A DNA stretch of 1,099 bases from Escherichia coli (GTDB lineage Bacteria > Pseudomonadota > Gammaproteobacteria > Enterobacterales > Enterobacteriaceae). The stretch lies in assembly GCF_003334255.1 (NCBI RefSeq), contig NZ_QOWU01000175.1. One strand, written 5' to 3'. The notes under the pieces are model-generated. The model saw only the letters and a program-made list of their open reading frames with translations, did no database searches and had not been told where the DNA came from. Of the stretch, positions 1 through 1,099 are shown piece by piece. A program made the position numbers and the translations under genes. How positions within the stretch are numbered: position 1 is the stretch's first letter; every line of letters starts with the position of its first letter.

Positions 1-68
1 CCACCACTCATCACCAGAAGCCCGGCCAGAGAAGATGACAGGAGTGTCATTGTAAACTTTTTACTCAT
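1..68 (-). CDS. 5' end of a gene continuing beyond the window start; N-terminus resembles a signal peptide or membrane anchor (product unknown)
   Basis: ATG at 68..66 (minus) preceded by CAGGAT with an 8-nt spacer; translation [23 protein letters not shown] has a basic n-region (KK) followed by a hydrophobic stretch; codons are typical enterobacterial (CTG, GCC, GGG). Only 22 complete codons are visible, so the call is weak. Confidence 0.4.
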   Translation of the reverse strand, partial: [22 protein letters not shown]

Positions 69-76
69 TATGGATA

Positions 77-80
77 TCCT
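77..80 (-). promoter_or_regulatory. Shine-Dalgarno-like AGGA for the gene starting at 68
   Basis: Minus strand reads CAGGATATCCATA-ATG; AGGA at 80..77 lies 8 nt from the ATG at 68..66. Confidence 0.35.
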
Positions 81-103
81 GTTAAATTATCTGTATACAA
101 ATC

Positions 104-144
104 AGCCGTAACACACTCATAAAAAAGTCTGATTAATTACGGCT
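104..144. repeat. Perfect 8-bp inverted repeat AGCCGTAA (104-111) / TTACGGCT (137-144) with 25-bp spacer
   Basis: Read directly from the sequence; lies 36-76 bp upstream of the minus-strand ATG at 68. Function (operator or RNA stem) unknown. Confidence 0.5.
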
Positions 145-164
145 TTATTCAGGATATTCCGAAA

Positions 165-194
165 ATAAATTTAAAAATTAATTTTATAAATTTA
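165..194. repeat. 9-bp direct repeats ATAAATTTA (165-173 and 186-194) flanking a perfect 12-bp A/T palindrome AAAATTAATTTT (174-185)
   Basis: Read directly from the sequence; repeat spacing is 21 bp (about two helical turns) in a stretch that is almost pure A/T. Confidence 0.4.
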
Positions 195-258
195 GGATTT
201 GTCTTACATTATTCTGGGCATACCTGCTCACGCATACGACCACACCGCCGGAACAGAT

Positions 259-345
259 ATCAGAAAAAACTTACCCCAGTCAGACTTGCTGTTTCACATC
301 TGCTTACACTGTAATTTGTGAACAAAATTACAACATCAGAAAAAA
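259..345. repeat. Exact 11-bp direct repeat ATCAGAAAAAA at 259-269 and 335-345
   Basis: Read directly from the sequence; on the minus strand both copies read TTTTTTCTGAT, and the 335-345 copy follows the hairpin at 346-361. Confidence 0.4.
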
Positions 346-361: not shown

Positions 362-426
362 CATGAAATATTTACAGGAGGAATAGTTCATGAGGGAAAG
401 AAATGTTTCCCCCATATTTTTATCTG

Positions 427-1008
427 TTATTCCTGTGCCCAGCCAACCCTGTATGCCAGTATCTCATCCGCACTGGTCAGCTTTTCCAGCTCTTTCTTCA
501 TGGTGCGCTGCCGGACGTGGATTTCCATCCCTTTGGTAAACATCGCCTGCTCTGCAGCAGCACTCAGAGCAATCAGTGTTTCAGCGTCCATCGGTACGTC
601 ATTATTGTCCGCATCCGTCCAGAAAAACTGCTCCGGCAGTTTCCCCGCTTTCGCTGCCGCCACCGACGGCTCAAGACGCGTCTGCGTTGACTTCCCGTAG
701 TCCCATTTACGCCCATTGTGCTCAAACGTGTAGTTCGCCGCTTCCATCGCATTACGCCAGGCGTTGATCCCGGCGGTTTTGAGTTCTCTGGCTTTTTCCG
801 GGCTGATGGATGGCTGTACATATTCTGCAATTTCACCGGCCTCTCCTCTCAGACAAGCGGCATAAATATCCCGCCCGTATGCTTCGGTATCGCTGGCTGT
901 TGCAGTGAAAGGAACCGCCTGCTCAATGTGCTCAAACTTCACCATGCAATTGACAGCAGTGTGCTCTTTATCTGCCCATTGCGGATTGCTTATTTTTTCC
1001 ACATTCAT
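427..1008 (-). CDS. Phage tail-associated protein, tail-fibre-assembly/chaperone-type (possibly DUF4376-like C-terminal region); 193 aa from the SD-supported start
   Basis: Only long ORF with protein-like composition (six-frame track 427..1083, stop TAA at 427-429). Minus strand reads ACAGGAG-ATG-AAC-ATG: AGGAG at 1015-1019, ATG at 1012-1014 (0-nt spacer) and ATG at 1006-1008 (6-nt spacer), so 1008 is the best-supported start, giving MNVEKISNPQWADKEH... A further in-frame ATG at 1081-1083 overlaps an upstream stop (TAATG) and is an alternative start. Family call rests on remembered similarity of the C-terminal stretch (FFWTDADNNDVPMDAETLIALSAAAEQAMF...EILAYRVGW) to small prophage tail-fibre-adjacent proteins; no search was run. 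Confidence 0.78.
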   Translation of the reverse strand: MNVEKISNPQWADKEHTAVNCMVKFEHIEQAVPFTATASDTEAYGRDIYAACLRGEAGEIAEYVQPSISPEKARELKTAGINAWRNAMEAANYTFEHNGRKWDYGKSTQTRLEPSVAAAKAGKLPEQFFWTDADNNDVPMDAETLIALSAAAEQAMFTKGMEIHVRQRTMKKELEKLTSADEILAYRVGWAQE

Positions 1009-1014
1009 GTTCAT

Positions 1015-1019
1015 CTCCT
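1015..1019 (-). promoter_or_regulatory. Shine-Dalgarno (AGGAG) for the 427..1008 CDS
   Basis: Plus-strand CTCCT at 1015-1019 is AGGAG on the minus strand, 6 nt upstream of the ATG at 1008..1006. Confidence 0.55.
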
Positions 1020-1099
1020 GTCTGTCAGTATGCGCGCTGGAACAGCCCGATGCCTTCATTGTCATTTGTCGACGTAATTTCATTACACACCATCCATGA

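What the first reader, a model, noticed from the sequence alone, without database searches (positions are those of the whole stretch)
165..194. Helically phased ATAAATTTA repeats around a 12-bp A/T palindrome
Two identical 9-mers 21 bp apart flank AAAATTAATTTT in a segment that is almost pure A/T. Such phased A/T elements typically create intrinsically curved DNA and high-affinity sites for nucleoid proteins (H-NS, Fis, IHF) or act as UP elements, which would fit silencing or regulation of a horizontally acquired downstream gene. The palindrome could also be a dimeric regulator site.
Basis: partly seen in the sequence, partly recalled or inferred. Interest (0 to 1): 0.3.

Follow-up and report, generated by a model that had tools for sequence, protein, structure and literature searches.

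The report
A/T-rich dyad upstream of eibC
The repeat and palindrome are real, but they are a 33-bp pure A/T stretch in the control region of the phage-borne antibody-binding gene eibC, already annotated in GenBank in 2000. Its symmetry is not conserved in related genes, so it is most likely ordinary promoter DNA that a silencing protein may bind.

Summary
ATAAATTTA occurs at 165-173 and 186-194, and AAAATTAATTTT at 174-185 is a perfect palindrome. Both sit in a 33-nt pure A/T run (162-194).

The window is 100% identical over 1-1037 to GenBank AF151674 (prophage P-EibC of E. coli ECOR-9). The depositors annotated 166-194 as 'stem_loop'. It lies on the minus strand, 98-126 nt upstream of the eibC start codon, inside a gene cassette inserted after the tail-fibre assembly gene.

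- **Hairpin:** negligible (-2.5 kcal/mol, z -0.8), so it is not a terminator.
- **Curvature:** the wedge model predicts average curvature.
- **Protein sites:** no IHF consensus was found. Fis-like and H-NS-motif matches are at chance level for the window.
- **Conservation:** across eight sequence types of eib-family upstream regions, the arms carrying the 9-mers are the least conserved columns. Only A/T-richness and the centre persist. That centre reads TAAAAT on the gene strand, which resembles a -10 promoter element.

Directly downstream begins a conserved, covarying RNA leader of about 100 nt that sequesters the ribosome-binding site.

My best reading is the A/T-rich core promoter region of eibC and a likely H-NS target. 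The repeat and dyad symmetry are lineage-specific and probably incidental. Interest is low. The leader is the more interesting by-product.

The parts
162..194 (.). 33-nt uninterrupted A/T tract, the actual unusual feature
   Evidence: longest A/T run is 33 nt and the next is 10 nt; only such stretch in 11 kb; 6 TpA steps.
165..173 (.). ATAAATTTA, copy 1. On the gene strand this is the right-hand, ATG-proximal arm.
   Evidence: Arm columns are only 0.61-0.66 conserved across 8 sequence types.
186..194 (.). ATAAATTTA, copy 2. On the gene strand this is the left-hand arm.
174..185 (.). Perfect 12-bp palindrome AAAATTAATTTT, the centre of the dyad
   Evidence: Centre columns are 0.85 conserved.
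166..194 (-). 29-nt imperfect palindrome, equal to the 'stem_loop' feature of GenBank AF151674/AF151675/AF151676 (record positions 844-872)
   Evidence: RNA fold -2.5 kcal/mol, z -0.84; DNA fold -4.2 kcal/mol, z -0.69.
181..186 (-). TAAAAT, candidate -10 hexamer (inferred). It is the only conserved part of the palindrome. Predicted transcription start is near window 174.
   Evidence: PWM score 7.7, second best in the 345-nt upstream region. A -10-like hexamer (TAAAAT or TAAATT) was listed at -118 to -124 from the ATG in 7 of the 8 upstream regions scanned (not among those listed for L012). Searches show the conservation.
204..209 (-). ATGTAA at the -35 position for the TAAAAT candidate. It is a poor match to TTGACA but overlaps the invariant motif GTAAG.
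   Evidence: T2 A3 A4 G5 invariant in 25 sequences.
162..167 (-). TATTTT, alternative candidate -10, paired with TTTATA at 185-190. Predicted transcription start is near window 155.
   Evidence: best PWM score, 8.1. However, 25% of shuffled A/T tracts score as high.
61..165 (-). Conserved structured leader RNA. The outer helix pairs 157-150 (AUAUCCUG) with the Shine-Dalgarno region 81-74 (CAGGAUAU). The inner hairpin pairs 144-137 with 111-104. There is also a short hairpin.
   Evidence: z -4.2. (covariance model hit at window 61-165, 116.7 bits). (90.8% paired, 12 of 31 pairs changed on both sides, 0/500 shuffles reach this). (RNAalifold recovers the inner helices).
1..68 (-). 5' end of eibC (immunoglobulin-binding trimeric autotransporter). 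ATG at 68-66, product begins [22 protein letters not shown].
427..1014 (-). orf-191C, a DUF4376 tail-fibre assembly gene and the last structural gene before the eib cassette
   Evidence: eib-less prophages share only window 385-1099.

Best explanation
The element is a DNA-level feature: the A/T-rich core promoter region of the eibC gene cassette.

Inferred mechanism:
- RNA polymerase opens the easily melted 33-bp A/T tract.
- The most likely -10 is the conserved central TAAAAT on the minus strand (window 186-181), with a poor -35. That implies an activator-dependent promoter.
- Transcription would start near window 174 (alternatively near 155) and run leftwards.
- The transcript runs straight into a conserved leader of about 100 nt that locks the ribosome-binding site, and then into eibC.
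- An uninterrupted A/T tract with TpA steps in foreign DNA is also the most probable H-NS binding or nucleation site of the locus. H-NS would then occlude the promoter at low temperature, and an activator such as IbrAB would relieve it.

The two ATAAATTTA copies and the dyad symmetry are peculiarities of the eibC/D/E lineage of this low-complexity tract, not the functional unit.

Shown here: identity, position and strand; weakness of the hairpin; lack of predicted curvature; the conservation pattern; the structured leader.

Inferred: promoter location, transcription start, H-NS binding.
For: - **Identity and position:** 100% match to AF151674/AF151676. The feature is 98-126 nt upstream of the eibC ATG on the gene strand.
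- **Cassette membership:** a collinear eib-less prophage at the same site lacks everything left of window 385. The roughly 320-bp upstream region travels with eib behind different neighbours: DUF4376, LPD38/LPD5 and IS66.
- **Conservation footprint in 25 distinct sequences / 8 types:** flanks 0.89-0.90, centre 0.85, arms 0.61-0.66. A/T content stays at 0.79-1.00. This fits conserved -35-region and -10 blocks separated by free spacer and start-site sequence.
- **PWM scan:** the two best sigma-70-like matches in the 345-nt upstream region both have their -10 inside the tract. The TAAAAT/TAAATT candidate recurs at the same distance in 7 of the 8 upstream regions scanned.
- **Structured RNA begins 5 nt or less after the tract:** z is -4 to -6 in most types and covariation is supported. 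The 136 nt upstream of the tract show no consistent structure (z -0.25, -2.0, +1.2, -2.3).
- **Composition:** intergenic GC is 32%, against 47.6% for eibC and 52.6% for the tail-fibre assembly gene.
- **H-NS motif:** 5 of the 12 matches to tCGATAAATT with 3 or fewer mismatches fall in 162-192, the best being 8/10 at 183-192.
- **Published expression:** Eib is nearly undetectable at 23 C and high at 37 C in static culture, with mRNA up about 3-fold (PMC4352079). Activation by ibrB is cited in PMC7649339.
Against: - No transcription start site data exist in anything I could reach. The primary papers (Sandt & Hill 2000; Sandt et al. 2002) are not held.
- The tract's promoter score is what composition alone gives: 25% of shuffled A/T tracts score at least 8.1.
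- The built-in stricter promoter scan found nothing on the minus strand.
- Two natural variants hit the proposed -10. L004 has TAAAAC (loss of T at -7) in a complete genome with an intact eib. L057 has TGAAAT, but from a low-coverage metagenome contig.
- The -35 match is poor.
- An ATG-proximal candidate exists: GTGTTA-17-GATAAT here, and TTGAAC-17-GATAAT in eibA with score 10.4.
- The H-NS motif count in the window equals chance (12 observed, 11.1 expected). eibC itself is not markedly A/T-rich.
Confidence: 0.5

Rival explanations
1. The element is a far-upstream nucleoid-protein site (H-NS, Fis or IHF, possibly on curved DNA). It silences or modulates a promoter that lies close to the ATG (-10 GATAAT at window 91-86, start near 79), placing the element at about -87 to -115.
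For: - The A/T tract and the clustering of H-NS-motif matches.
- The proximal GATAAT with a 17-bp spacer is present in all types and is strong in eibA (TTGAAC-17-GATAAT, score 10.4).
- The expression phenotype is typical of H-NS targets.
Against: - No predicted curvature at the element.
- No IHF site and no clearly enriched Fis-like matches.
- The phased 9-mers are not conserved.
- A start site near window 79 would leave out the whole covarying leader. The GATAAT sequence is part of the conserved short hairpin of that leader, so its conservation is explained otherwise.
Confidence: 0.17
2. The dyad is the operator of a sequence-specific dimeric regulator. One example would be the IbrB component of the IbrAB activator. 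From memory, IbrB is annotated as ParB-like, so it might work like the Shigella anti-silencer VirB.
For: - Dyad symmetry of 166-194 in the eibC/D/E lineage (4.8% of shuffles).
- eibA-type loci carry a different but strong dyad, GAAATTCCGAA-N16-TTCGGAATTTC, at the equivalent place (-13.8 kcal/mol, z -3.3). The annotated stem arms are invariant and the loop varies in 8 distinct eibA-type sequences.
- Eib expression needs a trans-activator.
Against: - The dyad decays in the intermediate types. L006, L010, L011, L012 and L066 are no better than shuffles (p 0.13-1.0), yet the rest of the region is conserved.
- The eibC and eibA dyads share no arm sequence, and their centres differ by about 3.5 bp.
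- eibA-type copies are nearly identical overall, so arm invariance is uninformative.
- No binding data exist.
Confidence: 0.1
3. The depositors' annotation taken literally: an RNA stem-loop, either a terminator or insulator that separates eib from the phage late operon, or a 5'-UTR hairpin.
For: - It is annotated as stem_loop in AF151674-6, with a counterpart in AF151091.
- It is followed by UUUU on the gene strand.
- The eibA counterpart is a stable hairpin.
Against: - RNA hairpin of -2.5 kcal/mol, z -0.84, with 41 of 200 shuffles folding as well.
- It contains no G-C pair.
- The real terminator after eibC is -20.4 kcal/mol plus a U5 run.
- There is no covariation and pairing is lost in homologues.
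- No Rfam family matches it.
Confidence: 0.04
4. There is no specific function. The element is a neutral low-complexity A/T spacer between two functional blocks, and its repeats arose by slippage or duplication in one lineage.
For: - The arms are the most variable columns.
- The repeat and palindrome pattern is only marginally beyond chance for the composition.
- Promoter-likeness equals composition.
Against: - A/T richness (0.79-1.0), length and the central TAAAATTAA core are kept in all eight types, despite 70-85% overall divergence.
- Spacing from GTAAG to the ATG is nearly constant at 147-156 nt.
Confidence: 0.19

Closest known systems
'stem_loop' features upstream of eibC, eibD and eibE in GenBank AF151674/AF151675/AF151676 (ECOR-9 prophages; Sandt & Hill, Infect Immun 2000)
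   Same: It is the same sequence at the same coordinates: record 844-872 equals window 166-194.
   Different: The annotation implies an RNA or DNA hairpin. Here the hairpin is thermodynamically negligible and not conserved. No function is attached to the annotation.
H-NS nucleation sites in A/T-rich promoters of horizontally acquired genes (10-bp motif tCGATAAATT, Lang et al. 2007; xenogeneic silencing, Navarre/Lucchini 2006; from my own knowledge)
   Same: A pure A/T tract with TpA steps in foreign DNA. There is an 8/10 motif match and clustered weaker matches. The expression phenotype is temperature-dependent.
   Different: No occupancy data exist. The motif count is at chance for the window. 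No curvature is predicted. The surrounding gene is only mildly A/T-rich.
Phage 'morons' with their own promoter and terminator, such as lambda bor and lom or HK97/HK022 morons (Juhala et al. 2000; from my own knowledge)
   Same: A self-contained cassette inserted after the tail-fibre genes, with a strong terminator after eibC. Published work describes Eib production by lysogenic strains.
   Different: The promoter is not mapped. The cassette also carries a long leader that sequesters the ribosome-binding site, which is not part of the classical moron description.
Anti-silencing by ParB-like VirB at distant sites in Shigella (from my own knowledge; a lead only)
   Same: Eib needs the IbrAB activator. 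The eibA dyad arms contain GGAAAT/ATTTC, which resemble VirB-box half-sites (read directly from L013).
   Different: No test was possible. The eibC dyad has no such half-sites. The fold and DNA binding of IbrB were not examined here.

Membership tests
H-NS nucleation / silencing site | A/T content well above the genome average, in horizontally acquired DNA | tested here: met
   33-nt pure A/T run. Intergenic GC is 32%, against 47.6-52.6% for the flanking genes. The cassette is absent from a collinear prophage.
H-NS nucleation / silencing site | Match to the high-affinity 10-bp motif tCGATAAATT | tested here: inconclusive
   The best match is 8/10 at 183-192. Five of 12 matches with 3 or fewer mismatches fall in 162-192, but the window total is 12 against 11.1 expected.
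H-NS nucleation / silencing site | Intrinsic curvature (often but not always present) | tested here: not met
   Wedge model: mean 10.0 and maximum 15.1 deg/turn at 165-194, against a window mean of 10.6. Phased A-tract controls give 26-30. The parameters were recalled from memory, so the result is qualitative.
H-NS nucleation / silencing site | H-NS occupancy, and derepression in an hns mutant | not testable with these tools
   No ChIP or genetic data were found.
Rho-independent terminator / stable RNA stem-loop | A stable stem, usually G+C-rich, more stable than shuffled sequence | tested here: not met
   -2.5 kcal/mol, z -0.84, no G-C pair. Not reported by the terminator scan.
Rho-independent terminator / stable RNA stem-loop | Pairing maintained in homologues | tested here: not met
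   The dyad decays to chance level in L006, L010, L011, L012 and L066.
Operator of a dimeric regulator | Dyad symmetry conserved across regulated homologues | tested here: not met
   The dyad is present only in the eibC lineage (p 0.048). A different dyad is present in eibA. None is present in the intermediate types.
Sigma-70 core promoter | A -10 hexamer with A at -11 and T at -7, and a -35 element 16-18 bp upstream | tested here: inconclusive
   TAAAAT (5/6) with a poor -35 (ATGTAA), or TATTTT (4/6) with TTTATA (4/6). The score is not above composition-matched shuffles. There was no hit in the stricter scan.
Sigma-70 core promoter | A mapped transcription start | not testable with these tools
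   No start-site data were available. It is inferred only from the start of the conserved leader structure.
UP element | An A/T-rich block at -40 to -60 of a defined promoter | tested here: not met
   Relative to the ATG-proximal candidate (start near 79), the element is at -87 to -115. Relative to candidates inside the tract, it covers -7 to -36 (and coordinates).
IHF / Fis site | Consensus WATCAANNNNTTR (IHF) or GNNNAWWWWWTNNNC (Fis) | tested here: not met
   IHF: 0 matches with 1 or fewer mismatches. Fis-like: 8 matches against 4.3 expected (20 of 200 shuffles reach 8), and the one overlapping the tract (161-175) has a mismatch at the conserved C.

The most novel reading that the evidence does not exclude
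The A/T dyad is the protein-recognised heart of a two-tier switch. It would be the operator and core promoter where the IbrAB activator displaces H-NS. IbrB is a ParB-like protein by my recollection, so this would be VirB-style anti-silencing. The promoter would feed a previously undescribed leader RNA that keeps the eib ribosome-binding site locked at 23-42 C until a second signal opens it. Together these would explain why Eib adhesins are almost silent in most hosts.
Probability: 0.1. Interest if true: 0.5.

Novelty: already known. Interest (0 to 1): 0.2.

Why it matters
Eib proteins are phage-borne trimeric autotransporters. They bind IgG/IgA Fc and have been proposed to contribute to serum resistance. 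They also drive chain-like aggregation in commensal and Shiga-toxin-producing E. coli, and their expression is tightly and unusually controlled. Knowing where the promoter is and what silences it would explain strain-to-strain differences in expression.

The element itself adds little. It is an annotated, low-complexity A/T tract of a kind common in promoters of foreign genes. The practical value of this check is twofold:
- It corrects the strand and target gene, and it removes the 'curved DNA / phased sites' and 'stem-loop' readings.
- It points to the conserved leader that sequesters the ribosome-binding site, immediately downstream, as the more promising regulatory element.

Tried and rejected
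- **Terminator or RNA hairpin:** rejected on energy and z-score, against the real eibC terminator.
- **Cruciform:** the DNA hairpin is -4.2 kcal/mol, z -0.7, with short arms. Rejected.
- **Intrinsic curvature:** my own wedge-model implementation with positive and negative controls finds none at the element.
- **IHF and Fis consensus scans:** negative or not clearly enriched.
- **Rfam:** nothing near the gathering score anywhere in the window.
- **RNAalifold on the raw MAFFT alignment (A1):** no consensus structure beyond 5 pairs. This came from register shifts between types. It was resolved with a covariance model and a structural alignment.
- **RNA thermometer reading of the leader:** the AGGA bases stay paired (P unpaired 0.00, at most 0.11 for one base in L066) from 23 to 42 C, so a simple equilibrium thermometer is unlikely.
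- **Literature:** the primary papers (PMC97405, PMC135156, PMC98814) are not held. Searches for the eib promoter, H-NS or an RNA thermometer found nothing specific.
- **Metagenome scan with CAGTGTAAGCAGATGTG:** 75 loci, of which 14 carried the eib-type flank and only one was a new sequence type (L066).
- **Viral contig scan:** added variants of known types only.
- **Promoter PWM:** not informative on its own, because shuffled A/T tracts score equally well.

Full report
**What the window is.** megablast places the window in E. coli prophages. It is 100% identical over 1-1037 to GenBank AF151674 (P-EibC) and AF151676 (P-EibE) of strain ECOR-9, and 99.8% identical over its full length to several complete genomes. 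All three genes lie on the minus strand:
- the 3' end of a tail-fibre gene (1025 onwards);
- orf-191C, a DUF4376 tail-fibre assembly gene (427-1014);
- the start of eibC, an immunoglobulin-binding YadA-like trimeric autotransporter, after a 358-nt spacer. The ATG is at 68-66 and the product begins [22 protein letters not shown].

A collinear prophage at the same tRNA-Ser/hya site lacks eib and shares only window 385-1099. Everything left of about 385, including the finding, therefore belongs to an inserted gene cassette (a phage 'moron'). The same upstream region of about 320 bp accompanies eib-family genes behind quite different neighbours: DUF4376, giant LPD38/LPD5 proteins, and an IS66 element.

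**The observation.** It is exact. ATAAATTTA occurs at 165-173 and 186-194, 21 bp apart. AAAATTAATTTT at 174-185 is a perfect palindrome, and the segment is 100% A/T.

Two additions matter. First, TAAATTTA is its own reverse complement, so the repeats are also inverted repeats and 166-194 is one 29-nt imperfect palindrome. Second, exactly this span is already annotated as 'stem_loop' in AF151674, AF151675 and AF151676.

The statistics separate composition from pattern. A 33-nt pure A/T run (162-194) is unique in the window and in the 11-kb locus. Given that composition, a 9-mer repeat appears in 11% of shuffles, a 12-bp palindrome in 27% and both in 3%. The dyad score is reached by 4.8% of shuffles.

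**What it is not.**
- **Not a stable hairpin.** As RNA the hairpin is worth -2.5 kcal/mol (z -0.84, and 41 of 200 shuffles fold as well). As DNA it is worth -4.2 kcal/mol (z -0.7). The terminator after eibC is -20.4 kcal/mol with a U-run. The depositors' 'stem_loop' is a symmetry, not a stable structure.
- **Not curved.** The A-tracts are 6-7 bp apart, which is out of helical phase. A wedge-model calculation gives a mean of 10 and a maximum of 15 deg/turn at 165-194, the same as the window mean of 10.6. Phased A-tract controls give 26-30 and out-of-phase controls give 8-11. The parameters were recalled from memory, so this result is qualitative.
- **No clear nucleoid-protein consensus.** There is no IHF consensus. 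Fis-like matches are not clearly enriched (8 against 4.3 expected, reached by 20 of 200 shuffles) and the one overlapping the tract has a mismatch. Matches to the H-NS motif tCGATAAATT cluster in the tract (5 of 12, best 8/10 at 183-192), but the window total is at chance.
- **No Rfam family** matches it.

**Comparative evidence.** I collected 28 distinct eib-family upstream sequences from complete genomes, phage records, viral contigs and metagenomes, and aligned 25 of them. They fall into eight sequence types at about 70-100% identity.

The distance from an invariant GTAAG to the ATG is almost constant at 147-156 nt. Within this frame the palindrome block is the most variable part of the proximal region:
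- flanks: 0.89-0.90 majority identity;
- centre: 0.85;
- the two arms that carry the 9-mers: 0.61-0.66.

The dyad is present only in the eibC/D/E lineage. It is at chance level in L006, L010, L011, L012 and L066. What persists is A/T richness (0.79-1.00) and the central core, which reads TAAAAT (or TAAATT, shifted by one) on the gene strand. eibA-type loci carry a different, strong dyad (GAAATTCCGAA-N16-TTCGGAATTTC; -13.8 kcal/mol, z -3.3) at the equivalent place, also annotated as stem_loop. Those copies are nearly identical to each other, so they give no covariation information.

**The neighbour that constrains the interpretation.** The roughly 100 nt between the tract and the ATG are almost invariant among eib types. 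They fold into the same three-way structure in every type:
- eibC: -28.1 kcal/mol, z -4.2;
- eibD type: -34.6 kcal/mol, z -5.9;
- L066: -35.5 kcal/mol, z -5.2;
- the other types: z -1.5 to -4.0.

An outer helix pairs window 157-150 (AUAUCCUG) with the Shine-Dalgarno region 81-74 (CAGGAUAU). In L012 and L066 both arms change together (UCCUCAU(G) with (C)AUGAGGA). In eibA the outer helix instead covers the start codon (GCUCAUG with CAUGAGC). The long inner hairpin has a different sequence in each type.

On a covariance-model alignment, 90.8% of cells pair and 12 of 31 pairs show changes on both sides. No shuffle out of 500 reaches this, and slid controls give 32-48%. The alignment is fitted to the model, which favours the structure. 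RNAalifold run on that same model-fitted alignment predicts the inner helices on its own, with 9 of 15 pairs compensated. It does not recover the outer helix.

The 136 nt upstream of the tract show no consistent structure (z -0.25, -2.0, +1.2, -2.3). The functional RNA therefore appears to begin within a few nucleotides of the tract's edge (window 160). This makes the tract either the core promoter or the extreme 5' end of the transcript.

**Promoter reading and its limits.** A simple sigma-70 PWM puts the two best matches of the 345-nt upstream region inside the tract:
- TTTATA-17-TATTTT (-10 at 167-162, score 8.1);
- ATGTAA-17-TAAAAT (-10 at 186-181, score 7.7).

The second recurs at the same distance from the ATG in 7 of the 8 upstream regions scanned (not among the candidates listed for L012). 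It also fits the conservation footprint: conserved -35-region block, variable spacer, conserved -10, variable start region.

The evidence is weak in several respects:
- 25% of shuffled A/T tracts score as well.
- The stricter built-in scan finds nothing on the minus strand.
- The -35 is poor.
- Two natural variants alter key -10 positions: L004 has TAAAAC and L057 has TGAAAT.
- An ATG-proximal candidate (GATAAT at 91-86) exists, though it lies inside the conserved short hairpin of the leader.

**Best explanation.** The element is the A/T-rich core promoter region of eibC and a probable H-NS target. The repeat and dyad are incidental to one lineage (confidence 0.5). The rivals are:
- a far-upstream nucleoid-protein site for the proximal promoter (0.17);
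- a neutral low-complexity spacer (0.19);
- an operator for a specific regulator such as IbrB (0.10);
- an RNA stem-loop or terminator (0.04).

Published physiology is compatible with silencing plus activation but does not discriminate between these readings. EibG is at the detection limit at 23 C and high at 37 C in static culture, with about 3-fold more mRNA (PMC4352079). Eib expression is enhanced by ibrAB (Sandt et al. 2002, as cited in PMC7649339).

**Verdict.**
- the regulatory A/T tract of a foreign gene and the plausibility of H-NS binding hold up;
- curvature, phased sites, an UP element and the 'downstream gene' do not.

The feature is already annotated and is of an ordinary kind, so interest is low (0.2). 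The conserved leader that sequesters the ribosome-binding site, next to the tract, is the more interesting item. I found no description of it in Rfam or in the searchable literature.

Noticed in passing
window 61-165, minus strand (also L003-L012, L066, L118 and eibA-type loci): A conserved leader RNA of about 100 nt with a three-way junction. Its outer helix sequesters the Shine-Dalgarno sequence (the start codon in eibA types). z is -4 to -6 in most types. 12 of 31 pairs change on both sides, with 0/500 shuffles reaching this. The ribosome-binding site is predicted to stay paired from 23 to 42 C. There is no Rfam family and no paper in the library describing it.
   Followed up: partly
window 104-144 plus 95-103, minus strand; same place in L066 and L013: The inner hairpin of the leader is followed by a U-rich stretch: GAUUUGUAU here, UUUGUUUGUAU in L066, and UUUUAUUUGUAU in eibA. 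This looks like a possible transcription attenuator inside the leader.
   Followed up: no
L013 3777-3814 (eibA) and L016, L022, L024, L029, L030, L042, L119-L121: eibA-type loci have a different, strong dyad at the position equivalent to the finding: GAAATTCCGAA-N16-TTCGGAATTTC (-13.8 kcal/mol, z -3.3). The annotated stem arms are invariant, the loop has three variants, and the loop contains TAAAAT. The arms contain GGAAAT/ATTTC.
   Followed up: partly
window 394-411, plus strand: A terminator-like hairpin (GGGAAAGAAATGTTTCCC followed by CCATATTTTT) oriented for plus-strand transcription, antisense to both genes. It lies between the cassette boundary (about 385) and the stop codon of the tail-fibre assembly gene.
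   Followed up: no
window 291-317 (minus strand AAATTACAGTGTAAGCAGATGTGAAAC): A block that is nearly invariant in all non-eibA types, about 225-250 nt upstream of the ATG, with unknown function. TGTAAG occurs here (308-303) and again exactly 100 bp downstream at the -35 position of the TAAAAT candidate (208-203).
   Followed up: no
window about 112-116, minus strand: eibC and eibE lack 5 nt (GAGGT or equivalent) that eibD and most other types have in the 3' arm of the inner leader hairpin. The hairpin still forms but is shorter: -28.1 against -34.6 kcal/mol.
   Followed up: partly
L006, L010, L011, L012 (LPD38/LPD5 genes), L008 (IS66), L003-L005, L007, L009, L118 (DUF4376): The eib-family gene and its upstream region of about 320 bp sit behind unrelated upstream genes in different prophages, and the region itself is mosaic. 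For example, L085 switches from eibC-like to L007-like sequence after the conserved block.
   Followed up: partly
window 120-135: The strongest predicted curvature near the finding (about 25 deg/turn at position 128) lies inside the leader-coding DNA, not in the A/T palindrome.
   Followed up: no
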